A stretch of 64,000 nucleotides of DNA from an uncultured bacterium (GTDB lineage: Bacteria; Patescibacteriota; Minisyncoccia; Phycocordibacterales; PALSA-1337), in assembly GCA_903839725.1 (NCBI GenBank), contig CAIMDG010000001.1:235315-299314 (forward strand). The letters are read 5' to 3'. Position numbers and translations under genes: made by a program. Below are positions 40,081 through 61,208 of the stretch, one piece after another; position 1 is the first letter of the stretch; each line of letters begins with the position of its first letter. Under the pieces are notes generated by a model. The model saw nothing but the letters and a program-made list of their open reading frames with translations, made no database searches and was not told the DNA's origin.

Positions 40081-40152
40081 GCCCTTGTAGTTCAATGGAT
40101 AGAATCGTCCCGTCCTAAGGGATTGATGCAGGTTCGATTCCTGCCAAGGGCA
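40081..40152 (+). tRNA. tRNA-Arg (CCT)
   Basis: Acceptor gcccttg/caagggc, anticodon loop gtCCTaa, T-arm gcagg-ttcgatt-cctgc. Confidence 0.7.
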
Positions 40153-40262
40153 CATGTTACATAACCACTAGCGAGCTAACTGCTTGACTCGCGCTAAGGA
40201 ATCGAATTTTGACATATATTTACCGAAAGAGTAACCTTTCAATAGAATAAAACTACATATGT

Positions 40263-42059: not shown

Positions 42060-42187
42060 AGTCATCATAAATTATCACAACTTGAGGTAAAGTGCAACTT
42101 TTCTTGTCCAAGGCCTGACTTCGGGCAGATTACTATAGGTATTATGGTCATTGTATGGTACTTTTAAGACACATATATCCTTCTCCT

Positions 42188-42691
42188 ATGCTTCATATCA
42201 AAGAAAAAAGCGTTCATGAAATATTCATCGCGAGTCTCGTTCTCAAAGGAATTGGTTCCGTATTGGAAATACTTGGTGGTGTACTTTTCATATTCACAGG
42301 GAAAATAACTGATTTTTTGACCAATCTTGCACAAACAGAATTACTCGAGGATCCCAATGATTTCATTTCGACTCAAATACAACACTGGGTTCCCTATTTC
42401 AATGGTCATCTACAGACATTTGGAGCAATGTATCTCCTTTCCCACGGTATCGTGAAGACATTCTTGGTCATCGGTCTGCTCCGCAATAAATTGTGGGCAT
42501 ATCCTGCGAGTATCACTGTGCTCTGTCTCTTCATCGTATATCAACTCTATCGTCTCACCTTCGGATATTCACTCTTCTTGATATGGCTCACCGTATTCGA
42601 TATATTCCTCATCTTCCTTACCTGGCATGAATACAAGCTTGTCAGTAAGCATCTTCCGCTTGATAAGGGGTACGTGAAGGAACTTCCATAA
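42188..42691 (+). CDS. membrane protein, DUF2127-like
   Basis: Four TM segments. The MLHIKEKSVHEIFIASLVLKGIGSVLEILGG start resembles DUF2127. From memory. Confidence 0.4.
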   Translation: MLHIKEKSVHEIFIASLVLKGIGSVLEILGGVLFIFTGKITDFLTNLAQTELLEDPNDFISTQIQHWVPYFNGHLQTFGAMYLLSHGIVKTFLVIGLLRNKLWAYPASITVLCLFIVYQLYRLTFGYSLFLIWLTVFDIFLIFLTWHEYKLVSKHLPLDKGYVKELP

Positions 42692-42758: not shown

Positions 42759-42829
42759 TGCGGGATCGTCTAATGGTAGGACACGAGCCTTTGAAGCTTG
42801 TTATCTTGGTTCGAATCCAAGTCCCGCAG
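42759..42829 (+). tRNA. tRNA-Gln (TTG) with U1:A72 and G73
   Basis: Acceptor tgcggga/tcccgca, anticodon loop ctTTGaa, T-arm cttgg-ttcgaat-ccaag. Confidence 0.8.
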
Positions 42830-42934
42830 CAGTCATGTGGTAGGTTCGGGAGACCGAGACCTGTCAGTTAATTATGTTTTTGACAAAGCGTTAATTCGTG
42901 GCGTTTTTCGGCTTTTTGTGAGAAGATAGGCTTT

Positions 42935-43936
42935 ATGAAACCTGAGGAAAAATTTATCAATATCACTGATAATAAGACAAAGATCAAACAGCTAATCGAA
43001 GAATTAGTTTTGGCCCCTCGACTGAATGCCATTAAATGGTCTCAAATTACGAAGCAAACTCCAAATATCAAGATTGGATATCCTGGACAGCATTTAGCCT
43101 CATTGATTACTGGAATGCCAGGCGAAAGAACTGGTGCGCGTGGCAATGATCTAATTGACGGTTCAGAAGTTAAATCGTGTTCTCGTGTTGATCAACTTGA
43201 TGTCTGTAAGGCATGTAAGTCACCTGTATCAAGATCCGAGGAAATATGTCCTGCCTGTAACTCAAAGGATGTATCTAGAAAAGAAGATTCAAAGTGGTTA
43301 TTTACGATTAGAAACGAGAACGATCTTAAGGTTCTTATAAATGATGTTAAAAGAGTTGTTCTCCTGATCGCTGATTATCCAAATTTTGAATCAAATGATT
43401 TCAATACTCTTCGTTTTCAGGCCTACGAAATTTGGACTCAAAGTCCAAGAAATAAAAGATTTAGTGAGTTGATGGATAACTACTATCATAAGATATACCT
43501 AGGACATAAGACAAAAGATGCCTCAAAGAACCCTGCACCAAAGAATTTTTGGCCATACTCATATCAATTTTTCCTCTGTAACCCAATCCTAACTTTCTCT
43601 TGTATAGTTAAAGACGCTAATACTAAACCAAAAATTGATATTCAGCATTATATAGAACCGAACCAAGATCGATCAAAATTGGAGTCTGTACTTATGCCAC
43701 CGAATCTTCTTGGTGATCTTGAATTTGATATTCTCTTAAATAATGCAAAAAAGTCAGAGATAATTGATATGCTTAATATCGATAAAATACCAGATTTTAA
43801 ATCTATGAAGTTACCAGAGAAGAGAAAGGTCTTTAAGGGTATTGATGAGAAGCTAAGATTCTATCTCCCATTAAGAGATACTGATAAGATTTCTGAATCT
43901 AAATCTGCTTACGCTCGTAGAAAATTAGTCGAATAG
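42935..43936 (+). CDS. putative type II restriction endonuclease
   Basis: Convergent with, and overlapping by 12 bp, a DPPY DNA methyltransferase. Has a Cys4 cluster (CKACK ... CPACN) and acidic/Lys residues (GNDLIDGSEVK) that could form a PD-(D/E)xK site. Called mainly from context. Confidence 0.35.
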   Translation: MKPEEKFINITDNKTKIKQLIEELVLAPRLNAIKWSQITKQTPNIKIGYPGQHLASLITGMPGERTGARGNDLIDGSEVKSCSRVDQLDVCKACKSPVSRSEEICPACNSKDVSRKEDSKWLFTIRNENDLKVLINDVKRVVLLIADYPNFESNDFNTLRFQAYEIWTQSPRNKRFSELMDNYYHKIYLGHKTKDASKNPAPKNFWPYSYQFFLCNPILTFSCIVKDANTKPKIDIQHYIEPNQDRSKLESVLMPPNLLGDLEFDILLNNAKKSEIIDMLNIDKIPDFKSMKLPEKRKVFKGIDEKLRFYLPLRDTDKISESKSAYARRKLVE

Positions 43937-44884
43937 TTTTTTCTGACTCTGTAAAAATTTAATTCTTTCTTTTGCTTTTTTGACGTAATCTGGATCAATT
44001 TCTATACCTATAAATTTTCTATTTAATTCTATTGCAGCCAAGGCGGTTGAACCTGCACCTAAAAACGGGTCAAGGACTATCATGCCCTCATTTGTACTAG
44101 CTTTGATGATTCGCTTGATTAAATCAACTGGTTTTTGAGTCGGATGATATCTTTCTTCTTTGTAAAATTTGATATCTGTCCAAACATCGGTGACTCCCAT
44201 CTCTATATTAAAGGTCTGCCCAATTTCCTCGTAAGGCAACTTAAATTCAAGGGCTTTCTCAAGTTTTTCCCACATCTCCCTTGTAGGGACTTGTGCAAGT
44301 ATATTTTCTCCTGTGTATAGCGACCAGACACCGCCACCATTGATCTTAACCCCAAGTCGTTTGTTTATATCTAAAGCAGTAAGCCCAAGTTCCTTCTGTC
44401 TCTTTTTTAGGAAGTCTTTAATAAACGGCTTACTATCGTAGATAAAAAATAGAAGGCTCTCGGTTACATTTGGAAACATTTTATATCCTTTCGTTGCTCT
44501 TCCCCCAAGAGCCTGCATACCTTTATCAATTACAAGTTGTTGTCTAAAAGTAAATCCTAAGTCTAGTATGTCTTTGTATAAATATACTAGGTTTCTCATA
44601 TATCCAAATAGGTAAAGACTACCAGAAATTTTAATTATTCTTGATAGTTCAGTGAACCATTCGAAGCACCACTTAGCGTAGTCACTTTCAGTTCTCCATT
44701 GATAATCCCAATGCTCGTTTATGACTTTCCAGTAAGGAGGATCGAGAACTATTAAATCAACACTTCTACTCGGCATTTTTTTTAGTTCTTCAATACAGTC
44801 GCCACAAATAATAGAATTAACCTCTAATTGGTTAACTAATTTACTTTTTTCTTTCTTTATCTTCTTATTCGTTTTTGTTGGCAT
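43925..44884 (-). CDS. DNA methyltransferase, beta-class (N6-adenine or N4-cytosine)
   Basis: DPPY motif IV near the N-terminus and FLGAGST motif I near the C-terminus. Confidence 0.8.
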   Translation of the reverse strand: MPTKTNKKIKKEKSKLVNQLEVNSIICGDCIEELKKMPSRSVDLIVLDPPYWKVINEHWDYQWRTESDYAKWCFEWFTELSRIIKISGSLYLFGYMRNLVYLYKDILDLGFTFRQQLVIDKGMQALGGRATKGYKMFPNVTESLLFFIYDSKPFIKDFLKKRQKELGLTALDINKRLGVKINGGGVWSLYTGENILAQVPTREMWEKLEKALEFKLPYEEIGQTFNIEMGVTDVWTDIKFYKEERYHPTQKPVDLIKRIIKASTNEGMIVLDPFLGAGSTALAAIELNRKFIGIEIDPDYVKKAKERIKFLQSQKKLFD

Positions 44885-44924
44885 TGTTGTTGATATTATG
44901 GCTTATTTCTAAGGTTTATACAAT

Positions 44925-46250
44925 TTAGACTTCATTCAAATATAATGTTTTATTATTAAGTTTAATTTTACTTTTTAAACAACTGAGCAACTCGCGTTTT
45001 TCAAAACTTGTACCTTCTCTTAGGATATATTTTGCATAGTTTCTGATTTCTATGTCCGCAACCTTTATCTTCTCGGTTTTACCAAGAACACCCGACTGAA
45101 ACTTCTTGTATCTCTCAACCTCAGCTTTTATATGCTCCTTCATACCGATCTCATCTAGATTAAGGGTGTCAATCATTTCCTCAAATTGTTTGATAAGATC
45201 TTCTTCTCGGATATACCCACACTTACAATCTTTATCTGCAAACCTGCTACATCCGTAGTACACATATCGATGCACATTTCCGTTAGCTTGTTTCTTGAAT
45301 TTCTCATCAGCAGTTATACCTGATCCACATAATCCACACTTGATGAGTTTCGTGAAGGCAAATTCCTTATTTTCAACTCGTATAATCGACCGTTGCATTT
45401 TCTCTTGCACGATATCAAATAGTTCCTTGGTGATGATCGGTTCATGTTTTCCCGTATACCATCGACCACTATTCTTTGGGTACTCGAAGCTACCGTAGTA
45501 GAAGTGATTTTTGAGGAGAATGTACACGTTGCTTAGGGTAAGTGGTTTACCTGACTTCGCTTTGAATTTGATTTCGTCCCGAAGCCAATAAAATATCTTT
45601 TTCCCACTCACGCCCTCATATGCCACTCGTTCGAACATCTTCTTCATGATCGGTGCTCGTTGATGATCTATATAGACGACCCCTTTCTCATTCACGTTGG
45701 TGCTATTAATGTAGCCTGTAGTTGCTACAGAAGGCCATAGACCCATCTCACACTTCGTTTTCAATCCTCGCTTCACATTGATGCTCTTGTTGTCGTTCTC
45801 GAGCTTAGCTTGGGATCCAAGGATCATGAGTAGGAACTTCTCATTTGGATTGTTCGTAAATTTCTGACTGTGCGTTCGTATCTCTATGAGGAGCTTCTGG
45901 TCAAGCAGATCGACAAGCGCTCCAAGATCTCCGGCATTTCTGCTCAGGCGATCAGGGTGCCATGTAATAATGCCGTTGAACTTTCCGCTCCGTATGTCTT
46001 GAAGAAGTTGATTGTACACAGGCCGTTGCCCGCAATCCTTTGCTGAATGGGACTCGCGATATACTTCAACAATATCGAGTTCGTCCCTTTGGGCAGTAGT
46101 GATCATTTCTTTGATCTGCGAGTCGATTGAAAGCGCTTGCCTTTCCTCCGCCTCACTCGATTTTCGAGCATAGAGGCAGTAACGTATTGGTAACGGCTTT
46201 ACCTCAAGATTGCCCATATTACTCCTCAGACCTATTGTTTTTGTTTCCAT
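44925..46250 (-). CDS. large serine recombinase (resolvase catalytic domain plus recombinase domain plus zinc ribbon)
   Basis: YARKSS catalytic Ser region, recombinase domain and C-terminal CxxC ... CxC cluster. Confidence 0.8.
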   Translation of the reverse strand: METKTIGLRSNMGNLEVKPLPIRYCLYARKSSEAEERQALSIDSQIKEMITTAQRDELDIVEVYRESHSAKDCGQRPVYNQLLQDIRSGKFNGIITWHPDRLSRNAGDLGALVDLLDQKLLIEIRTHSQKFTNNPNEKFLLMILGSQAKLENDNKSINVKRGLKTKCEMGLWPSVATTGYINSTNVNEKGVVYIDHQRAPIMKKMFERVAYEGVSGKKIFYWLRDEIKFKAKSGKPLTLSNVYILLKNHFYYGSFEYPKNSGRWYTGKHEPIITKELFDIVQEKMQRSIIRVENKEFAFTKLIKCGLCGSGITADEKFKKQANGNVHRYVYYGCSRFADKDCKCGYIREEDLIKQFEEMIDTLNLDEIGMKEHIKAEVERYKKFQSGVLGKTEKIKVADIEIRNYAKYILREGTSFEKRELLSCLKSKIKLNNKTLYLNEV

Positions 46251-46364
46251 ACTTACATTGATGACGCAGCCCCTCTTGAGAGTCTAGGACGCATCTGTTG
46301 GTAACTTATTCAGGCTATAATAATTAGCTTTTAAAATTAGTATTTTTGTGCTATAACTGGCCTA

Positions 46365-48125
46365 ATGAAACTTAAGAAAGTCAACATATCGGGTTTCCGA
46401 TCAATAAAGAAAACTGAGATACTTCTTGTTGAAGAGAAGATGACTATTCTAATCGGTGCAAACGATCACGGAAAGACTAATATTTTGAGTGCAATTGAAT
46501 TTTTGAATGAGGAAAAAACTTTTGTTCCAGATGATATTAACTGGGATCTTGAGACTGATCCAGATATAACAATAGAATGGCATTTTACACCATCGAGCGC
46601 TGCACTTGAGAAACTTGCATCACTTGAACATCAAACTGTTGAAGGTGAAGAGAGGCCGCCAATGATTGAAACCAATAAAGAGAATGAAATAGTTTATTAC
46701 CGAAAACATAGCGATAATAAAATAAAGGTTAAAAGTGTTCCTGGTATAATCCCTGTAGCAAAAGAGGTAGATGTTTTACAGTTGAGACCACGTATTGAAT
46801 TATTTGCGCCTCCAACTGCGAACTTGAGAGATCAAGTAAACCTAGGTCAACTTGAAACTTTGGAATTTGAATTTATGCAAGGAATATTTAGACTTGCTGG
46901 TATTTGGGATGTAAGGAAGGATATTTTTGTACAAAATGATAAGACTTCAAAATTGCTTGATGAGGCGTCATTGAAACTTACTGAAGTCCTAAATACTAAA
47001 TGGAATCAAGGCAGAGATCTAAAATGGAAAATAGAGCACACAGGAACAAACGGTGATCATATAGCCATAAAGATTCAAGATCCCGCTATTGGGACAAGGT
47101 ATACACGACCCTCTCTTAGGTCGTCTGGTTTTCGTACCTATTTCTTGCTTTCAATGATTACTTATGCTCGAACTGAAAATAAGGTTGCAGATTCGTATGT
47201 GTATCTCTTTGATGAACCAGGCACATATTTGCATCCTCATGCTCAATTGGATCTACAACGTAGCTTTGAATCAATATCTGGAAAGACGCAGATTATATAT
47301 ACAACACATTCACTTTTTCTTATCAATAAAAACTATCCTGGTAGAAATCGTGTAATAAGCAAAGCGAAAGACGGCACTAAAATTGACCAAAAGCCTTTTG
47401 TAAAAAATTGGAAATCTGTCCGAGAGTCACTTGGTATACTACTTAGTAATAATTTTCTTATTGCTGAAAAAACTCTTCTTGTTGAAGGCCCTTCTGATGT
47501 GATTTATATTCTTCATGCAATTAAGAAACTTAAAGCGGCGGATGAAATAGACATCGATCTCAATGATCTAAGCGTTGTTGATGCTGGGACATCTGAAAAC
47601 TATCTTGCTATGGCAAAGTTGATGGTTGCTGAAGGTCGTGAGGTTGTCGCGCTTTTGGATGGTGATAAGAAAGGTGAAGAAATAGAGAAACAATTGAAAA
47701 AAGTTTGCGAAAAAGAAATTAAGGATGGGAAACTCCAGATTCTCAAACTCCCTAAGGATAAATCAATAGAAGATATATTCACTGATGTGTCTGTTACCAA
47801 AAAAGCAATTGAGGCACTTGCTACTGATCTTATTGGAATGGGTATTCGTAAGTTGAAAAACGGAATTAACCTTGCTGGCGAAGTTGCCAAAATCGCGCCA
47901 ACTACTACTTTAACACTCGGAAGAATCATAGATGAAAAAACAACTTCAATGTTTGATCCAGAAGAGAAGCTTTCAAAACTTTCTATCGCACTAAAATATG
48001 AGGATATTATGTCGGACTCGGTTGCACTACCAGATAATGCTAAAGAGCAGATAGAAAAAATTAAAGACAAACTTTCTCTTAAAAATGAGAGAAATGATGA
48101 AAAATCTATTTTTGAAGAGGTCTAA
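46365..48125 (+). CDS. OLD-family nuclease: ABC-type ATPase plus C-terminal TOPRIM (class 1 OLD / GajA / fused PARIS-like architecture)
   Basis: Walker A GANDHGKTN, Walker B YLFDEPGTYLHP. TOPRIM region with LLVEGPSDVIYI and LLDGDKKGEE. 586 aa. Confidence 0.75.
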   Translation: MKLKKVNISGFRSIKKTEILLVEEKMTILIGANDHGKTNILSAIEFLNEEKTFVPDDINWDLETDPDITIEWHFTPSSAALEKLASLEHQTVEGEERPPMIETNKENEIVYYRKHSDNKIKVKSVPGIIPVAKEVDVLQLRPRIELFAPPTANLRDQVNLGQLETLEFEFMQGIFRLAGIWDVRKDIFVQNDKTSKLLDEASLKLTEVLNTKWNQGRDLKWKIEHTGTNGDHIAIKIQDPAIGTRYTRPSLRSSGFRTYFLLSMITYARTENKVADSYVYLFDEPGTYLHPHAQLDLQRSFESISGKTQIIYTTHSLFLINKNYPGRNRVISKAKDGTKIDQKPFVKNWKSVRESLGILLSNNFLIAEKTLLVEGPSDVIYILHAIKKLKAADEIDIDLNDLSVVDAGTSENYLAMAKLMVAEGREVVALLDGDKKGEEIEKQLKKVCEKEIKDGKLQILKLPKDKSIEDIFTDVSVTKKAIEALATDLIGMGIRKLKNGINLAGEVAKIAPTTTLTLGRIIDEKTTSMFDPEEKLSKLSIALKYEDIMSDSVALPDNAKEQIEKIKDKLSLKNERNDEKSIFEEV

Positions 48126-48425
48126 ACATGACTGTTGGTAACTCGACTTCGCAACCCCTCTAATCTAAGCTAAGGTACAGGACAGATTTTGATATTTCTG
48201 GTATTATTATTTTACAACTGAATAAGTGACCTAACCCCTAAATAACCCTTTGTTTTCTAGGATATGGTCGAAAAGCCGTCCAAAGTAAAGAACTCCTAAT
48301 CAGAGCTACTTTGGACGGTCACATCTCGAAAGAGGTGTGGGCACTCCCTGCGGGGTTTGTCGGCCTGGTTAGGAGCTTTTTGCTATCTAGTTCTCGGTCA
48401 TTATTAGTAAAACCGTCCAAATTTT

Positions 48426-48884
48426 ATGAGTATATTTGAATTTGTCATACCTGTAGTTACTCTAGTTGTACTGACTGCCATCGTCGTATTAGCTGTTAAA
48501 GAAATTAGAATAAATAAGAAAGTTAAAATTCTTCTTAAAAGTTTGACTGTTAAGTATCAAGAAAGTCCTGCTTTGTACATTCAGGATCTAATTTCTTTAG
48601 AGACATACAAAAATAAACAGAAAGATATTGTTCTGATAAAAGCATTGGATATGCTAAAAAAGCAGAAAGAGTTTGCTGAACTAGCGCAGAAGAAGCAAAA
48701 TTATAAATCAGATTACACCTCTTTGATTTTAATATCAGTGTTGGTACTTATTTCTGCAATAGTTGCTGTTCTTTTATATATGCTTACATTGATTATCCCA
48801 GGATTGGTATTTAGTTGGATCTTCGTTGCTCTTGTTGTGTTAGTGATTGCGGTGGTATTTATTATTACGGCTTTCGTTTCTTAA
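48426..48884 (+). CDS. small membrane protein (N-terminal TM plus C-terminal double TM) downstream of the OLD nuclease
   Basis: Hydrophobic N- and C-termini with a charged middle. 152 aa. Confidence 0.45.
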   Translation: MSIFEFVIPVVTLVVLTAIVVLAVKEIRINKKVKILLKSLTVKYQESPALYIQDLISLETYKNKQKDIVLIKALDMLKKQKEFAELAQKKQNYKSDYTSLILISVLVLISAIVAVLLYMLTLIIPGLVFSWIFVALVVLVIAVVFIITAFVS

Positions 48885-49383
48885 TCTTCTCCCATATTTT
48901 TCTTTGCTTAGGTGTCTTGCTGAAGAATTCCTTTAGGTATTTCTGATGCATTTCTTCGGTATATTCATCTTGAGAGAATGCCTTGTGGAATTGTTTTGCC
49001 TCATCAAAATTATGAGGTGCAGGTGATCTGTAACCACACTCGCTACATACATCACCAGGTTCAAAGTTGTGTTTATGCTCCTTTGGGATAATGTACGCGG
49101 TTCGTTTCGGCATATATCTCGGATCATTGTTGTTGAGATAATACTGAATAGCTCGAAAATCACCCTCGTTCACGAGCTTGAGTAATTTCGATTCAGCAAT
49201 CTCCCCAGCATTCGCTCTTCCATGTTTAAGAGCCTCGTCAATCGCTTGGCGAAATTCTGGGATATCTTTGATCCATCTGTAGACTGTCGCTCTGGCAATA
49301 CCTGCTTTTTTACATGCGTAATTGATGAAGGGCTTTTCGGAAAGTATTTCTACAATTTGGTTTCTAGTAAAATTACTTTTCAT
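48865..49383 (-). CDS. HTH protein, phage terminase small-subunit-like
   Basis: ACKKAGIARATVYRWIKDIPEFRQAIDEA helix-turn-helix typical of terminase small subunits and phage regulators. Confidence 0.4.
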   Translation of the reverse strand: MKSNFTRNQIVEILSEKPFINYACKKAGIARATVYRWIKDIPEFRQAIDEALKHGRANAGEIAESKLLKLVNEGDFRAIQYYLNNNDPRYMPKRTAYIIPKEHKHNFEPGDVCSECGYRSPAPHNFDEAKQFHKAFSQDEYTEEMHQKYLKEFFSKTPKQRKIWEKIKKRKP

Positions 49384-50743
49384 CGACTTTACGTCGTTTC
49401 TTACCTGTTAGCTTCTCCCATCGATTGAGTGCCACTTCAGCATACACAGGAGACTTCTCCATGATGAAGCATCGACGCTTTAGCTTCGTACACGCAATAA
49501 GTGTTGATCCGCTCCCACAGAATGGTTCAAGAACCAGCTGGTCACGCTTAGTGAGTACTTTGATGTATGGAATCAGTATTTCAATTGGCTTAGTGCCGAA
49601 GATAATTCCTTGTCCTGATGATTTCTCATCCGCTGCATTGTAGTCAACAAAATCAGTCGGGCAATACTTCTTACCTTTACCATACGACTCCCAGTGAGGC
49701 TTACCCTGAATAGCGAAGAGGGCTGTCTCGTATTCATTTTGAAGCAATTCATCTGCCTCTACTTCAGGATCTACACCCCCACGTTCATTACTTGTACCAA
49801 CCATGGCAATATCATGCTTCGAGAAGAACTTATGAGCACCTGCGTATCCTTGATTACGGTTCGGAAGGTGCCAAACAATCATATTGCGTACCTTCCAATG
49901 TTTTTCCATTTCACCCCAGATAGTGCGGATATTTTTCCAGTTCTCGTAACAGATGATTGAGAAATTTGAAGCTTGTACTTTTGCGACATTTGCCATCCAA
50001 AGTTCAGTGAAGTTCTCAGGTAATGATTCAGTCTCAAGATATCGACGATTTTTCTTTGCGCCGAATCCTGTGGTTGCTTCACCATGTTTTGTTTTTCCAT
50101 GAAGATAGTCCAATATATAAGGTGGGTCAGTCATGACCATATCTATCTTGTTGTCTCCACAGAGCTTGAGTATATCCGCTTCAACAGTTGAGTCACCACA
50201 CATCAGTTTTGATCCATCAAGATCGTACACGTCACCTTTCTGTACTGTTATTGTTCCTATTTCAAGTTTGTCGAGTTCTTTTTGGAGATCGAATTGTTCC
50301 TCAACCGAGTCTTCTTCGAATATTGAATCGAGTTCTTCTGAAGCGAAGCCTATATCAGAAAGGAATGTCTCATCAAATTGAGCGAGCAAGTCAAAATCCC
50401 ATTCGCCCTGGTTTTTATTGAGGCGAATACAGAGTTCCTTTTCTTTCTCCAGATCAGGAATATTTATGTATACAACAGGTACAGTTTCAAAGTTAAGCTC
50501 TCGAAGAACTTTCGCTCTAAAGTTGCCTCCGATGATAATTCCTTTTCTTGTTTCGGCTGAGTTTACGAGCAATGGATCGACTACTCCATACTGTTCGATA
50601 CTTTGTTTGAGTTGAGCAGTTGCTTCTTCATCCCAGACACGAGGGTTGTAATCTGGAGAAGTGAGGGTTGATAATGGAACATACTCGATTTTAAGGTCAC
50701 GTTCGTGTGAACGTGCAGAGCTACCTACGTTTGTATTTTGCAT
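49373..50743 (-). CDS. ParB-like nuclease domain fused to a DNA methyltransferase
   Basis: N-terminal ParB/Srx fold (VVDPLLVN ... GNFRAKV). C-terminal beta-class MTase (MTDPPY, PFCGSGST). This architecture is common in phage orphan MTases. Confidence 0.75.
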   Translation of the reverse strand: MQNTNVGSSARSHERDLKIEYVPLSTLTSPDYNPRVWDEEATAQLKQSIEQYGVVDPLLVNSAETRKGIIIGGNFRAKVLRELNFETVPVVYINIPDLEKEKELCIRLNKNQGEWDFDLLAQFDETFLSDIGFASEELDSIFEEDSVEEQFDLQKELDKLEIGTITVQKGDVYDLDGSKLMCGDSTVEADILKLCGDNKIDMVMTDPPYILDYLHGKTKHGEATTGFGAKKNRRYLETESLPENFTELWMANVAKVQASNFSIICYENWKNIRTIWGEMEKHWKVRNMIVWHLPNRNQGYAGAHKFFSKHDIAMVGTSNERGGVDPEVEADELLQNEYETALFAIQGKPHWESYGKGKKYCPTDFVDYNAADEKSSGQGIIFGTKPIEILIPYIKVLTKRDQLVLEPFCGSGSTLIACTKLKRRCFIMEKSPVYAEVALNRWEKLTGKKRRKVDEK

Positions 50744-51151
50744 ACTAAAAGATGAAATTATTTAATAATTTCTCTGTAGTGGAATAAAAATATAGGGTGT
50801 ACCTTCCAGAGGGAGGAGATACGTATCGTGAAGTCTGTAAAGATGTTGCGGCTTTTGTTCCCGTACAACACTTTAGACTGATAAAACCTTATAACCCCTA
50901 AGGTACAGAACGTAGACGGAGACCGATACCACTATGGTCAGGAGCACACGTTACTGTTTGCTAGAATTATTCGAGATATTGTTCCTCGAGGTGTTACTAC
51001 GAATTCTTTGCTTAGAGTAAGTATATCAAGTAGATAATTTTGTAAAATAGGTACCTGTGGACAACTTTTCGCATGTGTGTTGTCGTATACACAGTGTATA
51101 AGGAGATGTTTTTATGCTCGCTTATAGCACCAAAAGGAATATAATTACCAT

Positions 51152-51460
51152 ATGAATACATATGATAAAAAACCTAAGCAAGTAGATACTGAGTTTGTTT
51201 TAACTGAACTCAACAAGATAAAACAAGCCATGAGCGAGCTCGATGAGAGAATGGATTTTCTTTATGCGAGTGTGTTGTTTCAAGAGTCGATAAAAATTAT
51301 CCAAACATACAAAACAGTTACAGCTTCAAAGCTTCAGCGTAAATTTAATATTGGATATTCAAGATCTTGTTATTTGATTGATATTCTCGAAAAAGAGGGA
51401 TATCTCAAATTGGATAAAAAGAATAAAGAGTCTAGGACGTATGTAGTCCAGACTAAATAA
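51152..51460 (+). CDS. stand-alone FtsK-gamma winged-helix domain protein
   Basis: VTASKLQRKFNIGYSRSCYLIDILEKEGYL matches the FtsK gamma KOPS-binding wHTH consensus. Confidence 0.6.
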   Translation: MNTYDKKPKQVDTEFVLTELNKIKQAMSELDERMDFLYASVLFQESIKIIQTYKTVTASKLQRKFNIGYSRSCYLIDILEKEGYLKLDKKNKESRTYVVQTK

Positions 51461-51552
51461 AAAGACACTATTTTATAACATGCCCGCACAGTGTCTCATT
51501 TGTCTCATTTTATCATTTCATATTTGTATTTATCTAGATTTTTGCTAGCGTA

Positions 51553-51987
51553 TTGATTATGGATATCAGTACCACATCACCGCTTGGAATAGACTTTCCA
51601 AAGCAGGTTGTAAACCTTCTTCTGAAGGGTTTTGACGACGGTAAAAAGCATGCCGCCCATGTATTGTGGGATACGGGTATGTCGATTCTTGGTCAGCATT
51701 GGATCGCTATAGTCCTAGTACTAGTTGTTGTGCTTTTCCTCTCAGGATTACAGGCTTTTACCACAAGGTGGTGGGGGTGGTTCGGAAGCGTGCTATATCA
51801 CTATTTCTATTTTGGAACTTTGTTTATTATTGGTCTGATCTGGGGTCCAGAAGTCTTCGTTAGCGATCTCTTTGGTGTGCTTGCTGTAATTCTCTATATT
51901 GTCTGCTTTTTGCTCGTTGGCAAGATATTGAGCGAGACTGGAATTCACAGAGGCCTACCAAGACGTGTCAGAAAAGGGCGACGCTAA
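51553..51987 (+). CDS. membrane protein (3-4 TM)
   Basis: Hydrophobic segments and a basic C-terminus. Confidence 0.45.
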   Translation: MIMDISTTSPLGIDFPKQVVNLLLKGFDDGKKHAAHVLWDTGMSILGQHWIAIVLVLVVVLFLSGLQAFTTRWWGWFGSVLYHYFYFGTLFIIGLIWGPEVFVSDLFGVLAVILYIVCFLLVGKILSETGIHRGLPRRVRKGRR

Positions 51988-52093
51988 ATGCTACAATATG
52001 CTTACGGTGTCTCACCCTCAAAGGTCCTATACCGGAGCGTCCAGCTAAGTTGAGCGCAGTTCGAGCGCTCAAGTCGTATTAAGATATATTATA

Positions 52094-52933
52094 ATGATCG
52101 TCCCAGAAGAAATTAAAAAATGTATTGCATTTATTTGCGAAGACTCTAAAGACGGACCTATTCCTAGAGCGACAGGTTTTTTCGTTTCAGTACCATCGGA
52201 AAAGTTTCCCGAGAAATACAATTGGCTATATTTTATAACGGCGAGACATGCTAGTGCAAAATTGAATGGAAACTTGTTGCTTCGATTGAATGGACTAGAC
52301 AACAAAGCAAAATATATAAAGATATCTGACGTGGCTTGGCACTTTCATCCAAATCATTCAAATGATCCTGTGGATGTTGCAGTTATATCCATTTCACCGA
52401 TACCAGATATTGACATGAAATGGTTTCCGGTAGAAGGGATTATGACCCCAGAACTTTTTGAAAAAGAAGGTGTGGGAATTGGTAGTGAAGTATTTATAAC
52501 AGGATTATTTAGTAAAGTCTCTGGAGAAAATAAGAATTCACCTATTGTTAGAATTGGAAATCTTGCAATGTATCCAGAAGAAAAGATTAAAACAAAAGAT
52601 TTTGGGGACATGAAGGCCTATCTAATAGAAGCAAGGTCAATAGGTGGTGTTAGTGGTTCCCCTGTATTTTTTTGTGCTGATCCATTTGCACACATACCGA
52701 AAGGCTCAATACTTTATGCTACAGGTAATAGTCGACCAAGATTTTTTCTGGGTGGATTAATACATGGTCACTGGGATATATCTGATGAGCAGGTTGATTT
52801 TGATACCTCTGTAGACAAAAATATAAACATAGGTGTGGCTAGTGTTGTGCCAGGTTATAAGATTAAGGAAACATTATTTTCTGATGAATTAATTCAAGAT
52901 CGAAAAAAGAAAGATGAAACATTAAAAGACTAA
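52094..52933 (+). CDS. trypsin-like serine peptidase (chymotrypsin fold), no signal peptide
   Basis: Catalytic triad candidates ITARHAS (His), DVAVI (Asp) and IGGVSGSPVF (GxSGxPv Ser motif). Confidence 0.6.
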   Translation: MIVPEEIKKCIAFICEDSKDGPIPRATGFFVSVPSEKFPEKYNWLYFITARHASAKLNGNLLLRLNGLDNKAKYIKISDVAWHFHPNHSNDPVDVAVISISPIPDIDMKWFPVEGIMTPELFEKEGVGIGSEVFITGLFSKVSGENKNSPIVRIGNLAMYPEEKIKTKDFGDMKAYLIEARSIGGVSGSPVFFCADPFAHIPKGSILYATGNSRPRFFLGGLIHGHWDISDEQVDFDTSVDKNINIGVASVVPGYKIKETLFSDELIQDRKKKDETLKD

Positions 52934-53043
52934 AAAATTGCGCTCAACTCGCGTCGATATGGTAAACTGAAACTACTTAAATCCGCCAATCTGGGCTTGA
53001 CCGACGACGGTTCTGGCTCGAGTCGGCCAGCCAAGCAAATTTT

Positions 53044-53784
53044 ATGAAATTATTATGTCTCAATACTTGGGGCTGTAGAGTTGATACTATATTTGATTAT
53101 ATTCAGAAAAATTCTGATGCTGAGATTATTTGTCTTCAAGAAGTCATAGAAGGAGGAGAAAAAGAAACAGAACGCCATGAAAAGACAAATTCATTTGAAA
53201 TGATCAGTAAACTATTACCTCATCATTCCGGATATTTTGCTAAGTACATACATGGATCACACTATGGTGAGGAACCGAAAAATTTTTCGTTTGGAATATC
53301 GACTTTCGTTAAGACTTCAATTAAACATAGTCTTTACAAGAACATTGAGCTATTAGATGCAGATAAAAAATGGAATGATTATTCAGGAAGATTTGCAGGA
53401 GGAGTTGCACAGGCTGTTACTGTTGGAGATTTTACGATTATCAATGTTCATGGACTATGGCAAGATCTCGTTATTGAAGACACTGAGGCAAAGATTGAAG
53501 AAAGCCACACGATACTCAGGCTTGCTAATGAAACAGCTGGAAAAAAGATAATTTGTGGCGACTTCAACTTGACCCAGAACACACGGCCGATAAAAGTTTT
53601 AAATGATGCATTCACAAATTTGATTGATGCCCGTAGTATTTCTGATACAAGGGGCCCATTATATAAGGGTACAAATAGATTCGCTGATTATGTTTTTGTT
53701 GATTCTCAGATTGAAGTAAAATTATTCGAAGTTCCAAATGTTTCAATTTCAGATCATTTACCATTAGTATTAGAATTCAAATAA
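53044..53784 (+). CDS. endonuclease/exonuclease/phosphatase (EEP) family protein
   Basis: LNTWG...ICLQEV N-terminal motif and C-terminal SDHLP. Paralog of 61209..61904. Confidence 0.7.
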   Translation: MKLLCLNTWGCRVDTIFDYIQKNSDAEIICLQEVIEGGEKETERHEKTNSFEMISKLLPHHSGYFAKYIHGSHYGEEPKNFSFGISTFVKTSIKHSLYKNIELLDADKKWNDYSGRFAGGVAQAVTVGDFTIINVHGLWQDLVIEDTEAKIEESHTILRLANETAGKKIICGDFNLTQNTRPIKVLNDAFTNLIDARSISDTRGPLYKGTNRFADYVFVDSQIEVKLFEVPNVSISDHLPLVLEFK

Positions 53785-53826
53785 GTTGTTAGGCTTGAAT
53801 CGCGTCGAAATGTTATAATACCAATT

Positions 53827-54393
53827 ATGAAAAGTGCAATAATAATTCATGGATATAATGATAAGACTGAATTTCTAGATGCGAGTCGCCCATCAGCATC
53901 TAATGACCATTGGATACCATGGCTTCAGAGAAAGCTATTATTAAATGGTATCGAGACTCAAACTCCTGAAATGCCTGGTTTTTACGAACCAAATTATGAG
54001 AAATGGAAAGATCTACTGGATAGATTACATCCTGATGAAAATACAATGTTAGTTGGTCATAGTTGTGGAGGAGGATTTCTTGTAAGATGGTTAAGTGAAA
54101 ATAATAAGAAAGTTGGCAAGGTTGTTCTTGTTGCTCCTTGGTTGGACCCAGAAAGCGAAATCGATCCAAACTTTTTTAAATTCAATATCGATTCAAATCT
54201 CGTCTCTAAGACTACTGGTCTAATAGTGATGTATTCAACTGACGATGCTTCAACTGTACTCAAAAGTATTGAAATACTCAGAGCGAAAATAAATGATGCT
54301 CAATTTAAGGAATTTGAAGGAAAAGGACATTTTGTGTTGAGTAGTCTGAACACGGAGAAGTTTCCTGAACTTTTGTCTATACTCTTAAATTAA
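53827..54393 (+). CDS. serine hydrolase, YdeN/RBBP9 family
   Basis: IIIHGY ... LVGHSCGG nucleophile elbow. 188 aa. Confidence 0.7.
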   Translation: MKSAIIIHGYNDKTEFLDASRPSASNDHWIPWLQRKLLLNGIETQTPEMPGFYEPNYEKWKDLLDRLHPDENTMLVGHSCGGGFLVRWLSENNKKVGKVVLVAPWLDPESEIDPNFFKFNIDSNLVSKTTGLIVMYSTDDASTVLKSIEILRAKINDAQFKEFEGKGHFVLSSLNTEKFPELLSILLN

Positions 54394-54495
54394 TCTAGCA
54401 CCCTACAATCTATTCAAATTAACAACCATTGCCAAAAGGTGAAAAATGTGTAGTATTAATTTTTAGACAAACAAAACAATAGAAGCAAATTAATT

Positions 54496-56767: not shown

Positions 56768-57763
56768 ATGTCTCCTGTCAGTCCCCTTGCAAAGAAACAA
56801 CTCGCAGTGTTGGGCTTCGGCTCGCAAGGCCACGCCCATGCCCTCAACCTCAAGGATTCAGGTCACAATGTGATCATCGGCCTCTATCCGGGCAGCAAAT
56901 CCATCCAGGTGGCGGAGAGCAAAGGTTTTACTGTGCTTCCGGTTGAATCAGCGGTTTGTCAAGCCGACGTCATTTTCGTCGCACTGCCCGACACGAAGCA
57001 AGCCCGCGTGTTCGTGGAAAACATTTTGCCTCATCTGACGAAGGGCAAAACACTTTTGTTTTCTCACGGCTTCTCGATTCACTTCAAGACAATCATTCCG
57101 CCGAAGGGCGTCAATATTGTCATGGTGGCACCGAAAGGCCCGGGCCACGTCGTCCGCAGCCAATATGTGGAAGGCAAAGGAGTGCCGAGTCTCATTGCGG
57201 TTTACCAAGGCGGCACCAAAGCGAAGAACATCGCACTTGGATGGGCCCACGGCATCGGCGCCACTCGCGCAGGTGTTTTGGAAACCTCGTTCAAAGAGGA
57301 AACCGAAACTGATTTATTCGGCGAACAAACCGTCCTGTGCGGCGGCCTGAGTTCCCTCGTCATGGCCGGCTTCGAAACGCTGGTTGAAGCGGGATATTCT
57401 CCCGAAATGGCCTACTTCGAATGTCTGCATGAAGTGAAACTGATCGCCGACCTCATGAACGAATCCGGCATCGCTGGTATGCGGTTCTCAATTTCCGAAA
57501 CCGCGAAGTGGGGAGATGTATCCGTCGGCCCCAAGATCATCAATGCCGGCGTGAAGAAACGCATGGCGGTTGCTCTCAAGAACATCCAATCGGGCAAGTT
57601 TGCTCGTGACTGGATCAAGGAATACAACGGTGGCTACAAACGCTACGACGCATTACTTGCACGCGACGCAGGACACCTGATTGAGAAGACCGGCGCCCGT
57701 CTTCGCGGACTCATGCCGTGGATGAAAAAGCGTGCGATCAAGGGCGCCCAAGCGTCGTATTGA
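56768..57763 (+). CDS. ilvC: ketol-acid reductoisomerase, class I
   Basis: [14 protein letters not shown] Rossmann motif and KARI C-terminal knotted domain. GC about 55 %, far above the window average. Start chosen at MSPVSP; the ORF extends upstream to 56687. Confidence 0.85.
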
Positions 57764-57875
57764 TCACTACGGTTCCAAGATCGAATATGCAATTCCGCAA
57801 GGAATTGCATATTTTTATTTGTATTAAAAAAGCCGATCCTATTTCTAGAATCGGCTTCGAGTCATCTGATCTTGA

Positions 57876-61041: not shown

Positions 61042-61208
61042 AAATCCTATGGGTTTTTGGGTTTCAAAGAGTCTGCCCGTAATTTGAGCATATTATAGCA
61101 CTAATGTCAACACTTGTACTACCTATAAAAAATGGTGGTTGAGCCACACCATACACATTCTTTTGGATAAAAATTATTCAATAAAAGTGGTACTATACTG
61201 ATACAAAT

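What the first reader, a model, noticed from the sequence alone, without database searches (positions are those of the whole stretch)
42759..51150. Integrated island at tRNA-Gln carrying R-M, serine recombinase, OLD-family nuclease, phage-like HTH and ParB-MTase
Gene content switches abruptly at the tRNA-Gln 3' end from housekeeping to mobile and defence functions. These are a convergent RE-like/MTase pair, a large serine recombinase, a 586-aa ATPase-TOPRIM OLD-family protein (the architecture of P2 Old, Gabija GajA and fused PARIS), a terminase-small-like HTH protein and a ParB-MTase fusion typical of phages. A repeated motif AACCCCT..CTAAGGTACAG occurs in both large intergenic spacers of the island (48157..48185 and 50888..50908). 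A ccgtccaaa triple repeat with an inverted pair lies at 48270..48420. These may be regulatory or recombination sites of the element.
Basis: partly seen in the sequence, partly recalled or inferred. Interest (0 to 1): 0.65.

Follow-up and report, generated by a model that had tools for sequence, protein, structure and literature searches.

The report
Serine-recombinase defence island at tRNA-Gln
A mobile-element-derived island sits exactly at the 3' end of a tRNA-Gln gene in a Patescibacteria (CPR) genome; it belongs to a widespread family of serine-recombinase elements that carry anti-phage genes, often behind a structured RNA (LOOT) of unknown function.

Summary
Every gene call holds: MamI-type REase and MTase, large serine recombinase (LSR), stand-alone OLD nuclease, TerS-like HTH, ParB-MTase.

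ParB-MTase, HTH and LSR form a co-directional backbone that recurs in about 30 IMG/VR contigs and 80 metagenome loci. In 46 of 46 loci with a tRNA downstream of the LSR, its 3' end faces the LSR. The sequence right after the tRNA is conserved across tRNA types and is rare after control tRNAs. The window carries it at 42831-42870, so the R-M pair lies inside the element.

No empty site exists in the same species. The nearest species has tRNA-Gln without this terminus. Occupied and empty tRNA-Arg(CCT) pairs also diverge at the tRNA 3' end.

The right end is not fixed: at least 51987, probably about 54428.

The window copy lacks the TerL-like gene present in 57 related loci. Cargo in relatives is type I and III R-M and other defence genes, not virion genes.

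The "ccgtccaaa" repeats belong to a LOOT RNA (Rfam RF03000, 48228-48357). The first "AACCCCT..AAGGTACAG" copy lies in its conserved upstream block. LOOT occurs in 53 related loci and 0 of 1.2 Mb of control. Its architecture suggests a cis-acting leader of cargo genes.

The parts
42759..42830 (+). tRNA-Gln (UUG), the integration target. Its 3' end faces the recombinase gene.
   Evidence: ARAGORN; Rfam tRNA 63.7 bits. The same geometry is seen in 46 of 46 related loci.
42831..42870 (+). Element terminus abutting the tRNA (AGTCATGTGGTAGGTTCGGGAGACCGAGACC...). It is the proposed element-side arm of the tRNA-side junction.
   Evidence: The same motif class follows Gln, Arg and Lys tRNAs next to related recombinases. 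GACC within 35 nt occurs in 33/47 cases against 5/92 control tRNAs. It is absent after tRNA-Gln of L019.
42935..43936 (+). Type II restriction endonuclease, MamI family. Cargo in the slot between recombinase and tRNA.
   Evidence: Pfam RE_MamI 6e-39; PADLOC REase_II 3e-38.
43925..44884 (-). N6/N4 DNA methyltransferase, partner of the REase.
   Evidence: Pfam N6_N4_Mtase 8e-43; PADLOC MTase_II 4e-52.
44925..46250 (-). Large serine recombinase (integrase) of the element.
   Evidence: Resolvase + Recombinase + Zn_ribbon_recom; phrog_95 integrase 2e-63. The positions that are invariant across 37 homologs, including R29 and S31, are present. More than 549 relatives in metagenomes.
46365..48125 (+). 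Stand-alone OLD-family ATPase-TOPRIM nuclease. Cargo inserted between the recombinase and the LOOT unit.
   Evidence: AAA_15/AAA_21 + OLD-like_TOPRIM. PADLOC 'Old' 1.7e-30 is the best model. PDB 6P74 (OLD family) and GajA both match at about 1e-7. None of the ten ORFs between 42935 and 52933 matched a helicase family.
48139..48207 (+). Conserved promoter-like block upstream of LOOT.
   Evidence: The blocks CTGTTGGTAAC / CTTCGCAA / TAAGCTAAGGTACAG are conserved in L115, L117, L126, L142, L128 and L123. Promoter scan. Promoter function is inferred.
48228..48357 (+). LOOT RNA core (Rfam RF03000). The P2 stem is 48276-48286 with 48308-48318.
   Evidence: 68.8 bits against a gathering score of 46.4, E 8e-11. 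Present in 53 related loci and absent from 1.21 Mb of control.
48365..48382 (+). 3' extension of LOOT. CTGGTTAGGAG pairs with 48293-48303 (CTCCTAATCAG) and is followed by CTTTTTG, which is terminator-like.
   Evidence: Own-locus duplex of at least 10 bp in 46/51 loci, against 17% for cross-type pairs. 84-92% of cells are paired, with changes on both sides in 10 of 11 pairs, on a MAFFT alignment. Part of the minimum-free-energy fold.
48413..48421 (+). Third CCGTCCAAA copy, 4 nt before the ATG of the next ORF. It is a copy of the 5' arm of P2 and could pair with the 3' arm of P2.
   Evidence: An exact repeat of at least 8 nt lies in the same position in 33/50 loci, with different sequences in different loci.
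48426..48884 (+). 152-aa membrane protein of unknown function, the only ORF directly behind LOOT here.
   Evidence: No Pfam, PADLOC or PHROG match. The hydrophobic N- and C-terminal segments are read from the translation.
48865..49383 (-). TerS-like HTH protein (backbone).
   Evidence: HTH_Tnp_1_2 4e-9; PHROG terminase small subunit 4e-9. It follows the ParB-MTase in more than 30 loci.
49373..50743 (-). ParB_N-N6/N4 DNA methyltransferase fusion (backbone).
   Evidence: Homologs up to 70% identical lie upstream of HTH and the recombinase in IMG/VR contigs.
50893..50930 (+). Motif copy 2 (AACCCCTAAGGTACAG, 50893-50908), followed by GGAGACCGATACC (50918-50930), a direct near-copy of the terminus 13-mer at 42848-42860. 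It may be a remnant of a LOOT unit or of an older junction.
   Evidence: Relatives L117, L120, L123 and L128 carry a complete LOOT unit in this position. No other homology was found. Unexplained.
51152..52933 (+). Probable third cargo slot: FtsK-gamma-like wHTH (51152-51460), TM144 (51553-51987) and a PDC-S45-like 279-aa protein with a GGVSGSP motif (52094-52933).
   Evidence: Pfam FtsK_gamma 5e-12; PADLOC PDC-S45 3e-14; phrog_7688. TM144 homologs lie near the recombinase in L167, L199 and L212.
53044..54428 (+). Possible distal part of the island: an Exo_endo_phos protein and a Ser_hydrolase. The right break of homology is at 54428/54429.
   Evidence: L230 (ArsA region, 80% nt identity) is homologous only from 54429 onward. 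GC is 0.355 over 53-54 kb. In L231, ArsA lies next to L31-RF1. Weak.

Best explanation
Window 42831 to at least 51987 (probably to about 54428) is an integrated copy of a widespread family of Patescibacteria integrative elements.

Backbone. Read on the minus strand, the backbone is ParB-DNA methyltransferase, then a TerS-like HTH, then a TerL-like ATPase/nuclease (present in 57 relatives, missing here), then a large serine recombinase (LSR).

Integration. The LSR inserted the element precisely at the 3' end of tRNA-Gln(UUG), within about 2 nt of the discriminator base. The tRNA stays intact and no repeat is needed.

Cargo. The backbone has three variable slots:
- Between LSR and tRNA: here a MamI-type type II R-M.
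- Between TerS/TerL and LSR: here a stand-alone OLD nuclease, then LOOT RNA and a 152-aa membrane protein.
- Upstream of the ParB-MTase: here a wHTH, TM144 and a PDC-S45-like protein.

Function. The element works as a mobile defence island. Packaging-type genes without virion genes point to a satellite-like lifestyle. Having lost TerL, this copy is probably no longer self-packaging.

LOOT. The LOOT RNA with its own promoter heads cargo slots throughout the family. It most likely acts in cis on the downstream cargo gene. A long-range helix followed by a U-tract would act as a terminator. A copy of the P2 5' arm at the start codon would compete for the P2 3' arm and so gate translation.

Shown: gene identities, the conserved backbone, tRNA geometry, the conserved terminus, the LOOT association and the covariation.
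Inferred: the act of integration, the satellite lifestyle, promoter activity and the regulatory logic.
For: Gene identities.

Backbone: ParB-MTase, HTH, (cargo), LSR on one strand in about 30 IMG/VR loci and in 30-31 of 80 metagenome loci. A TerL-like gene follows the HTH (phrog_38 7e-39, Terminase_6C 2e-8). It occurs in 57 loci and not in the window.

tRNA targeting: of 116 LSR copies, 46 have a tRNA downstream. All 46 are on the opposite strand, and only 1 locus has a tRNA upstream. The tRNAs are Gln (23), Ser, Arg, Asp, Asn, Trp, Lys and Glu. The gap is 89-208 nt in the minimal cases.

Terminus: conserved motifs directly follow the tRNA across tRNA types, in 22/47 cases against 1/92 control tRNAs.

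Occupied and empty sites:
- tRNA-Gln in the window against L019 diverges after ...CCCGCAGCA.
- tRNA-Arg(CCT) occupied in L166 and L158 diverges at the tRNA end from the empty sites in the window and in L021-L032.

Cargo in relatives: type I HsdM/S/R, type III Mod/Res, PLD+SNF2, KAP NTPase and PDC-S11. No capsid, portal or tail family appeared among the recurrent clusters.

LOOT:
- Rfam match above the gathering score in the window and in 7 of 13 loci.
- Own covariance model: 12 hits in IMG/VR loci and 42 in metagenome loci, against 0 in 1.21 Mb of Patescibacteria control.
- 33 of 53 copies lie directly beside the LSR gene and read away from it.
- Long-range helix plus U-tract supported.
- Copy of the P2 arm at the start codon in 33/50 loci.
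- 107 of 620 pairs are G.U, so the pairing is specific to this strand.
Against: - No empty site was found in the same species. All 16-18 contigs that carry the flanking genes carry the island, so there is no sign of current mobility.
- The far end is not defined. No inverted or direct copy of the terminus rises above shuffled controls, in the window or in 36 relatives.
- L019 is not a clean empty site. It has other defence genes after its tRNA-Gln.
- No helper phage is known and no excised form was seen.
- TerL is missing here.
- The right-boundary evidence rests on one short contig (L230) and on GC content.
- LOOT is typed as an sRNA in Rfam. 17 of 50 loci lack the start-codon repeat, and OLD and the R-M pair are not behind LOOT in this window.
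- Whether this family is already described in literature outside the held library could not be checked.
Confidence: 0.8

Rival explanations
1. It is the decayed remnant of an ordinary temperate phage of a CPR bacterium. Integrase, ParB-MTase and TerS survive, the structural genes are lost, and defence genes are morons.
For: Relatives were binned as viral in IMG/VR. TerS- and TerL-like genes and a ParB-MTase are typical phage genes. TerL is lost in the window.
Against: Across about 116 loci with up to 10 kb on each side, the recurrent neighbours of the backbone are R-M and defence genes. No capsid, portal or tail cluster recurs. TerL is directly followed by the LSR and the element end, where a phage would place its portal and head genes. 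Some loci span only about 5-7 kb from ParB-MTase to tRNA (L118, L120, L147), but the distal end was not defined in any of them. Only cluster representatives were annotated, so rare structural genes could have been missed.
Confidence: 0.15
2. It is a static defence hot-spot next to tRNA-Gln, built by unrelated insertions. The recombinase is a domesticated or inactive gene, or an invertase, and the island never moved as a unit.
For: Every same-species contig carries the island. GC varies among segments. L019 has different defence genes at the same tRNA. Terminus-like fragments at 50918, 52053 and 52997 suggest piecemeal accretion.
Against: The backbone order, the tRNA orientation (46/46) and the terminus motif are conserved across many tRNA types and hosts. 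The LSR keeps every position that is invariant in the family alignment. The R-M pair lies between the conserved terminus and the LSR, as cargo does in relatives.
Confidence: 0.2
3. The repeated motifs (AACCCCT..AAGGTACAG and CCGTCCAAA) are recombination (att or res) sites of the recombinase.
For: They lie in the two long spacers. Copy 2 sits next to a 13-mer shared with the tRNA-side terminus. LOOT is usually adjacent to the LSR gene.
Against: The CCGTCCAAA copies map to the P2 stem of an Rfam family and covary as RNA with G.U pairs. Motif copy 1 is part of a block with promoter-like hexamers conserved in relatives. LOOT shows no excess identity or complementarity to the tRNA or terminus (own mean 7.5 nt, cross mean 7.3 nt).
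Confidence: 0.07
4. LOOT is a trans-acting small RNA of the element, as typed in Rfam. It would regulate lysogeny, immunity or host genes, and would not act as a cis leader of cargo genes.
For: Rfam type 'Gene; sRNA'. A helix plus U-tract directly after the core would end a discrete RNA of about 170 nt. 17 of 50 loci lack the start-codon repeat.
Against: In 33 of 50 loci the 'AAAA + P2 5' arm' is repeated 1-9 nt before the next ATG, with locus-specific sequences. LOOT always reads into a variable ORF about 45-120 nt downstream. The two roles do not exclude each other.
Confidence: 0.35

Closest known systems
Large serine recombinase (serine integrase) elements: phiC31, Bxb1, A118, TP901-1, SCCmec Ccr
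   Same: The Resolvase-Recombinase-Zn-ribbon architecture. The integrase gene lies at one end of the element. There are no long att direct repeats.
   Different: From my own knowledge, the well-studied serine integrases insert into protein-coding genes or gene ends. This family sits at the extreme 3' end of tRNA genes of at least 8 identities. Its backbone is ParB-MTase, TerS and TerL, and it often carries LOOT.
tRNA-associated genomic or defence islands and phage satellites with tyrosine integrases (P4-like elements, PICI/SaPI, PICMI)
   Same: tRNA-adjacent integration, small size, packaging gene(s) without virion genes, and variable hot-spots filled with R-M and other defence systems.
   Different: The recombinase is a serine enzyme, not a tyrosine one. 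There is no duplicated tRNA 3' segment. Relatives carry both TerS-like and TerL-like genes. The host is Patescibacteria. No helper phage, primase/replicase or AlpA-type regulator was identified. Satellite status is an inference.
OLD-family nucleases (P2 Old and class 1 OLD; Gabija GajA; PARIS AriA/AriB)
   Same: An N-terminal ABC-type ATPase plus a C-terminal TOPRIM in one 586-aa protein. The best PADLOC model is Old. PDB hits to the OLD-family protein 6P74 and to GajA are equal in strength.
   Different: None of the ten ORFs between 42935 and 52933 matched a helicase family, so it is not Gabija. The AriA models match, but below Old, and there is no separate AriB. Defence activity is untested.
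LOOT RNA motif (Rfam RF03000; from the Breaker/Weinberg-group ZWD alignment collection that Rfam 14 imported)
   Same: A full-length match above the gathering score, with the P1-P4 helices and a GAAA tetraloop in P3.
   Different: Rfam lists it as a metagenome-based sRNA (PMC7779021). Here it is placed in a Patescibacteria genome and tied to an LSR element. It is extended by an upstream promoter-like block, a 3' long-range helix plus U-tract, and a start-codon-proximal repeat. The original supplementary description could not be read.
MamI-type type II restriction-modification systems
   Same: RE_MamI endonuclease (6e-39) convergent with an N6/N4 MTase.
   Different: Its specificity is unknown. 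It is carried as cargo between the recombinase and the att junction.

Membership tests
Large serine recombinase (serine integrase) | N-terminal resolvase catalytic domain with the conserved Arg and Ser | tested here: met
   PF00239 2e-23. R29 and S31, in the motif YARKSS, are invariant among 37 homologs.
Large serine recombinase (serine integrase) | C-terminal Recombinase domain plus zinc-ribbon domain | tested here: met
   PF07508 1.5e-14 and PF13408 2e-10.
Large serine recombinase (serine integrase) | Catalyses attP x attB integration with a short crossover and no long repeats | not testable with these tools
   Indirect evidence only: a conserved junction at tRNA 3' ends and absence of repeats.
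OLD-family nuclease | ABC ATPase domain fused to a C-terminal TOPRIM domain | tested here: met
   AAA_15 3e-25, AAA_21 1e-15, OLD-like_TOPRIM 1e-7; PADLOC Old 1.7e-30.
Gabija (GajA/GajB) | Adjacent UvrD-like helicase GajB | tested here: not met
   The neighbours are the LSR and LOOT with the TM protein. None of the ten ORFs between 42935 and 52933 matched a helicase family.
PARIS (AriA/AriB) | AriA ATPase with an AriB TOPRIM partner or fusion as the best model | tested here: inconclusive
   AriA 4e-27 covers the N-terminus only. Fused AriAB scores 3e-14, weaker than Old at 1.7e-30.
Type II restriction-modification system | Adjacent REase and cognate-type MTase genes | tested here: met
   RE_MamI and N6_N4_Mtase, convergent with a 12-nt overlap.
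LOOT RNA (RF03000) | Covariance-model score above Rfam's gathering threshold over the full model | tested here: met
   68.8 bits against 46.4, model positions 1-121.
LOOT RNA (RF03000) | Helices supported by covariation among relatives | tested here: met
   P1 88% and P3 95% of cells paired, with changes on both sides. P2 reached 56% and P4 53% of cells paired on the sequence-only MAFFT alignment. Compensatory P2 variants are visible.
Intact prophage | Capsid, portal, tail and lysis genes contiguous with integrase and terminase | tested here: not met
   None in the window. None among the recurrent clusters of related loci.
Phage satellite (PICI/P4/PICMI-like) | Integrase plus packaging-redirecting gene(s), without virion genes | tested here: met
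   The family has an LSR, TerS-like and TerL-like genes and no virion genes. The window copy lacks TerL.
Phage satellite (PICI/P4/PICMI-like) | Induction and packaging by a helper phage | not testable with these tools
   No helper phage or excised form was identified.
tRNA-integrating genomic island (classical, tyrosine integrase) | Tyrosine integrase and a direct repeat of the tRNA 3' segment at the far end | tested here: not met
   The recombinase is a serine enzyme. No tRNA-derived repeat was found.

The most novel reading that the evidence does not exclude
LOOT is not a free-standing sRNA. It would be the cis-acting leader ('cargo gate') of a widespread and possibly undescribed family of satellite-like elements of Patescibacteria. 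These elements are driven by a serine recombinase and target tRNA 3' ends.

The unit would consist of a conserved promoter block, the ornate core, a long-range helix with a U-tract, and a start-codon-proximal copy of the P2 arm. Together these would form a terminator and translation switch. The switch would control expression of whatever defence or membrane gene is dropped into the slot behind it.
Probability: 0.4. Interest if true: 0.75.

Novelty: new variant of a known kind. Interest (0 to 1): 0.6.

Why it matters
Mobile elements and defence islands of CPR/Patescibacteria are poorly charted. This locus gives access to a family with more than 549 recombinase relatives in metagenomes and simple, recognisable anatomy.

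Three things follow if the reading holds:
1. A clade of serine integrases whose natural sites appear to be the 3' ends of tRNA genes of several identities. Serine integrases are widely used as genome-engineering tools.
2. A catalogue of cargo slots for mining new defence genes in ultra-small bacteria.
3. A genomic home and a concrete, testable mechanism for LOOT, an ornate RNA listed in Rfam as a metagenome-based RNA typed as an sRNA.

The island in this window is by itself an ordinary defence island. The value lies in the family it reveals.

Tried and rejected
1. att direct repeats derived from the tRNA. None was found in the window or in relatives.
2. A direct or inverted copy of the tRNA-side terminus, to locate the far end. 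In the window the best hits are a 13-mer at 50918 and weak inverted matches. In 36 relatives nothing rises above shuffled controls. A loose regex for the terminus is too common to help.
3. An empty site in the same species, via exact-protein look-ups of both flanks. Every contig carries the island.
4. Synteny in genus-level relatives. Only tRNA-Phe, g123, tRNA-Arg, RF1 and L31 are conserved. Beyond L31 the genomes are rearranged.
5. LOOT as a guide or bridge-like RNA that specifies the tRNA target. LOOT shows no excess identity or complementarity to the tRNA or terminus of its own locus. Rejected.
6. A TerL remnant in the window. None.
7. Exact and degenerate terminus patterns in IMG/VR, to catch an excised attP. 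There were 0 exact hits. The degenerate hits were the known L116 contig at a tRNA-Arg end and an unrelated sequence class.
8. Homology of the 50744-51151 spacer to relatives. None beyond the short motif.
9. The first covariance model (R1) used an RNAalifold consensus that missed P2. It was therefore used only as a detector.
10. The literature search found no description of this element family or of LOOT's function in the held library. The supplementary text of the discovery paper is not held.

Full report
**Organism and context.** The window comes from a Patescibacteria (CPR) genome. Its RF-1 protein is 84-95% identical to those of MAGs labelled Candidatus Taylorbacteria or Paceibacterota. Upstream of the finding lie housekeeping genes and tRNAs: tRNA-Phe, tRNA-Arg(CCT), chorismate mutase, RF-1, L31, a DUF2127 protein, then tRNA-Gln(UUG) at 42759-42830.

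  - a MamI-family REase (42935-43936, +);
  - an N6/N4 MTase convergent with it (43925-44884, -);
  - a large serine recombinase with Resolvase, Recombinase and Zn-ribbon domains (44925-46250, -);
  - a 586-aa ABC-ATPase/TOPRIM protein whose best PADLOC model is Old (46365-48125, +);
  - an HTH protein that matches six PHROG terminase-small-subunit families (48865-49383, -);
  - a ParB_N-MTase fusion (49373-50743, -).
- The motif AACCCCT..AAGGTACAG occurs exactly twice, with none expected.
- CCGTCCAAA occurs three times, one of them inverted.
- GC drops to 0.34-0.38 in most of 43-54 kb, against 0.40-0.43 in the flanks.

**Same species and nearest species.**
- Exact-protein look-ups of the OLD gene and of both flanks returned 16-18 contigs from several samples. 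All carry the island, so there is no empty site in this population.
- The closest other species (L019, RF-1 95%) has tRNA-Gln in the same place. Homology to the window runs through the tRNA and stops 2 nt after the discriminator base: ...CCCGCAGCA|GTCATGTGG in the window, ...CCCGCAGCA|TTTGAGAAA in L019.
- Downstream, L019 carries other defence-type genes: an HNH remnant, a 188-aa RloB-like ORF and a 423-aa AAA ATPase.
- More distant relatives share only the tRNA-Phe to L31 block.

**The island is a member of a large element family.**
- Searching IMG/VR with the ParB-MTase and the recombinase gave 16 and 35 loci.
- In about 30 of them, ParB-MTase, HTH and recombinase lie on one strand in that order, as on the window's minus strand.
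- In most, a roughly 500-aa ORF sits between HTH and recombinase. It matches PHROG terminase large subunit (7e-39) and the Terminase_6C nuclease domain.
- This TerL-like gene occurs in 57 fetched loci but has no trace in the window.
80 loci were kept.

**tRNA targeting.**
- Among 116 recombinase copies, 46 have a tRNA gene in the available downstream flank. All 46 are on the opposite strand, with the tRNA 3' end facing the recombinase. Only one locus has any tRNA upstream.
- The tRNAs are Gln (23, dominant among the closest relatives), Ser, Arg, Asp, Asn, Trp, Lys and Glu.
- In minimal cases the gap is 89-208 nt. In others it holds 0.8-8 kb of cargo, as the R-M pair does in the window.
- The sequence immediately after the tRNA is conserved across tRNA identities. 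One class reads (C)AGTCATGTGAGACCnnCGAG: the window, L177 and L162 (the last at a contig-end partial tRNA); Lys in L152; near-variants in L196 and L202 (Gln) and in L156-L158 (Arg). Another class reads TTTTTATCGnnnAGACCGA (Asp, Ser, some Gln).
- A GACC-containing motif lies within 35 nt in 33/47 of these tRNAs, against 5/92 control tRNAs from Patescibacteria loci. With a stricter pattern the figures are 22/47 and 1/92. This is therefore element sequence, not a generic tRNA trailer.
- The window carries it at 42831-42870, so the element abuts the tRNA and the R-M genes lie inside it.
- A second occupied/empty comparison comes from tRNA-Arg(CCT). It is occupied in L166 and L158. It is empty in the window (40081-40153) and in L021-L032. 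Divergence again begins right at the tRNA 3' end.
- No tRNA-derived or terminus-derived repeat marks the other end. That fits a serine recombinase.

**Cargo and nature of the element.** ORFs of the window and the 51 IMG/VR loci (805 in all) were clustered, and representatives were annotated.
- The recurrent neighbours of the backbone are type I HsdM/HsdS/HsdR, type III Mod/Res, a PLD+SNF2 helicase (DrmD-like), a KAP NTPase, a PDC-S11 candidate and similar genes. No capsid, portal or tail family recurs.
- Cargo sits in three places: between TerS/TerL and the recombinase, between the recombinase and the tRNA, and upstream of the ParB-MTase.
- Several contigs hold two backbones in tandem (L126, L129/L131, L139/L140).
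- Packaging-type genes plus an integrase, with defence cargo and without virion genes, resemble phage satellites more than prophages. This is an inference, because no helper phage or excised form was seen.

**Right boundary.**
- A TM144 homolog (window 51553-51987) occurs near the recombinase in three related loci.
- The 279-aa protein at 52094-52933 matches PADLOC candidate PDC-S45 and a PHROG.
- A contig with an ArsA gene about 80% identical at nucleotide level (L230) is homologous to the window only from 54429, the ArsA promoter, onward.
- In another relative, ArsA lies beside L31 and RF-1.
- Together with GC, this places the right end between 51987 and about 54428. That limit is tentative.
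- Terminus-like fragments inside this stretch hint at accreted remnants. They are GGAGACCGATACC at 50918, a type-C terminus at 52053-52082, and a hairpin ending in CCA at 52997-53034 that precedes such termini in L178 and L204. They remain unexplained.

**The repeats are a LOOT RNA.**
- Rfam finds LOOT (RF03000) at 48228-48357 on the + strand, at 68.8 bits against a gathering score of 46.4. The inverted CCGTCCAAA pair is its P2 stem.
- Rfam's own publication lists LOOT among metagenome-based RNAs (PMC7779021). Another paper notes its unusual covariation pattern (PMC7657543). The discovery paper's supplement is not held.
- LOOT passes the Rfam threshold in 7 of 13 related loci.
- A covariance model built from these 8 copies finds 12 copies in the IMG/VR loci and 42 in the 80 metagenome loci. 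It finds none in 1.21 Mb of Patescibacteria loci chosen by RF-1.
- 25 copies lie within 600 nt upstream of the recombinase gene and are divergent from it. 8 lie within 200 nt downstream on the same strand. 7 are divergent from the MTase. The rest have cargo in between, as OLD is in the window.
- In every case LOOT reads away from the backbone into a variable ORF. These ORFs include nucleases (NucS_C, VRR-NUC, PD-(D/E)XK, PLD), T5orf172, a type III MTase, PDC-S02/S11/S57 candidates, and many small zinc-ribbon or membrane proteins.

**An extended LOOT unit.** Comparing the flanks of the first twelve copies found, then of all of them, shows three additions.
1. An upstream block (CTGTTGGTAAC..CTTCGCAA..TAAGCTAAGGTACAG). 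A second promoter-like site, AGGACA-N17-TATTAT, ends 20 nt before the core. Its -10 element is conserved in relatives.
2. A long-range helix. The 5' strand and loop of P2a (48293-48303) pair with a segment just after the core (48365-48375), which is followed by CTTTTTG.
   - Own-locus duplexes of at least 10 bp occur in 46/51 loci, against 17% for cross-type pairs. There are 41 distinct sequence combinations and 107 G.U pairs among 620.
   - On a sequence-only MAFFT alignment, the tool counts 84-92% paired cells and changes on both sides in 10 of 11 pairs. That is comparable to P3. Pairing falls to about 47% when partners are slid by one column.
   - The helix is part of the minimum-free-energy fold (z = -3.2).
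3. A start-codon repeat. 'AAAA plus the P2 5' arm' is repeated exactly (at least 8 nt) 1-9 nt before the next ATG in 33 of 50 loci, with locus-specific sequences. In mismatched pairs the figure is 18%.

The window's third CCGTCCAAA (48413-48421) is this repeat. The arrangement matches the classical layout of anti-anti-sequester, anti-sequester and ribosome site, combined with a terminator. I therefore propose that LOOT acts in cis on cargo expression. A trans role is not excluded. A guide-RNA role for the recombinase is not supported.

**The second motif copy.** The copy at 50893-50908 has no LOOT behind it and no homology in relatives. It lies where L117, L120, L123 and L128 carry a full LOOT unit, so it is probably a remnant.

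**The OLD protein.** It is stand-alone, and no ORF tested in the island matched a helicase family. It matches the OLD-family protein 6P74 and GajA equally in the PDB. I file it as a class-1-like OLD on gene context. The class definitions come from my own knowledge. It is not Gabija.

**Verdict.** As a single locus it is an ordinary defence island and probably immobilised: TerL is lost and it is fixed in the population. What raises interest is the family behind it. That family combines serine-recombinase elements that occupy tRNA 3' ends in CPR bacteria, modular defence cargo, and a tight link to LOOT RNA with a testable cis-regulatory design. Whether any of this is already published outside the held library could not be checked.

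Noticed in passing
window 57000-61100: A block with GC 0.53 against about 0.40 elsewhere. It covers the 3' part of ilvC, a 298-aa ORF with no Pfam hit (57876-58772, -) and a 766-aa protein with two GT4 glycosyltransferase domains (58741-61041, -). It looks like a separate foreign insertion.
   Followed up: no
L019 1-2830 (closest other species): Downstream of its tRNA-Gln lie an HNH-endonuclease remnant, a 188-aa RloB-like ORF and a 423-aa AAA ATPase, which together form a split ATPase and TOPRIM-like pair. The DUF2127 gene of the window (42155-42691) is missing there except for its last ~15 nt.
   Followed up: partly
window 52053-52082 and 52997-53034: AGTTGAGCGCAGTTCGAGCGCTCAAGTCG resembles the tRNA-adjacent terminus of other elements (L180, L192). 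TTGACCGACGACGGTTCTGGCTCGAGTCGGCCAGCCA is a hairpin ending in CCA. In L178 and L204 such a hairpin directly precedes such a terminus, and it also occurs downstream of ArsA in L230. The two sequences flank the PDC-S45-like gene. They may be secondary att-like sites or remnants of tandem elements.
   Followed up: partly
window 51489-51511: A 21-nt sequence, AGTGTCTCATTTGTCTCATTT, between the FtsK-gamma-like gene and TM144. It is conserved on the same relative strand in L151, L126, L115, L158 and L194. Its function is unknown.
   Followed up: no
window 50918-50930: GGAGACCGATACC is a direct near-copy of the tRNA-side terminus 13-mer (42848-42860). It lies 10 nt after the second AACCCCTAAGGTACAG motif.
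   Followed up: partly
L138 12925-13260: Between tRNA-Gln and a PDC-S11-like gene lies a spacer of about 330 nt. By eye it contains inverted repeats and a terminator-like end, and it was not detected as LOOT. It may be a different leader RNA in the same role.
   Followed up: no
L126, L129/L131, L139/L140, L156: Two copies of the recombinase or of the whole backbone lie on one contig, 6-18 kb apart. This suggests tandem accretion of elements.
   Followed up: partly
L001-L011 (same-species contigs): Several assemblies break inside the MamI-like REase gene at different positions. The cause could be strain heterogeneity or low coverage there.
   Followed up: no
L166 4972-13395: A Taylorbacteria-like genome carries a related element at tRNA-Arg(CCT), next to homologs of the window's g123 and PKD-like genes. 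The same tRNA-Arg is unoccupied in the window at 40081-40153.
   Followed up: yes
L235, L237-L241: An unrelated sequence class contains ...GTCATGTGAGACCTTTCGAG... with no tRNA and no recombinase nearby. It may be a chance match or another context for the motif.
   Followed up: no
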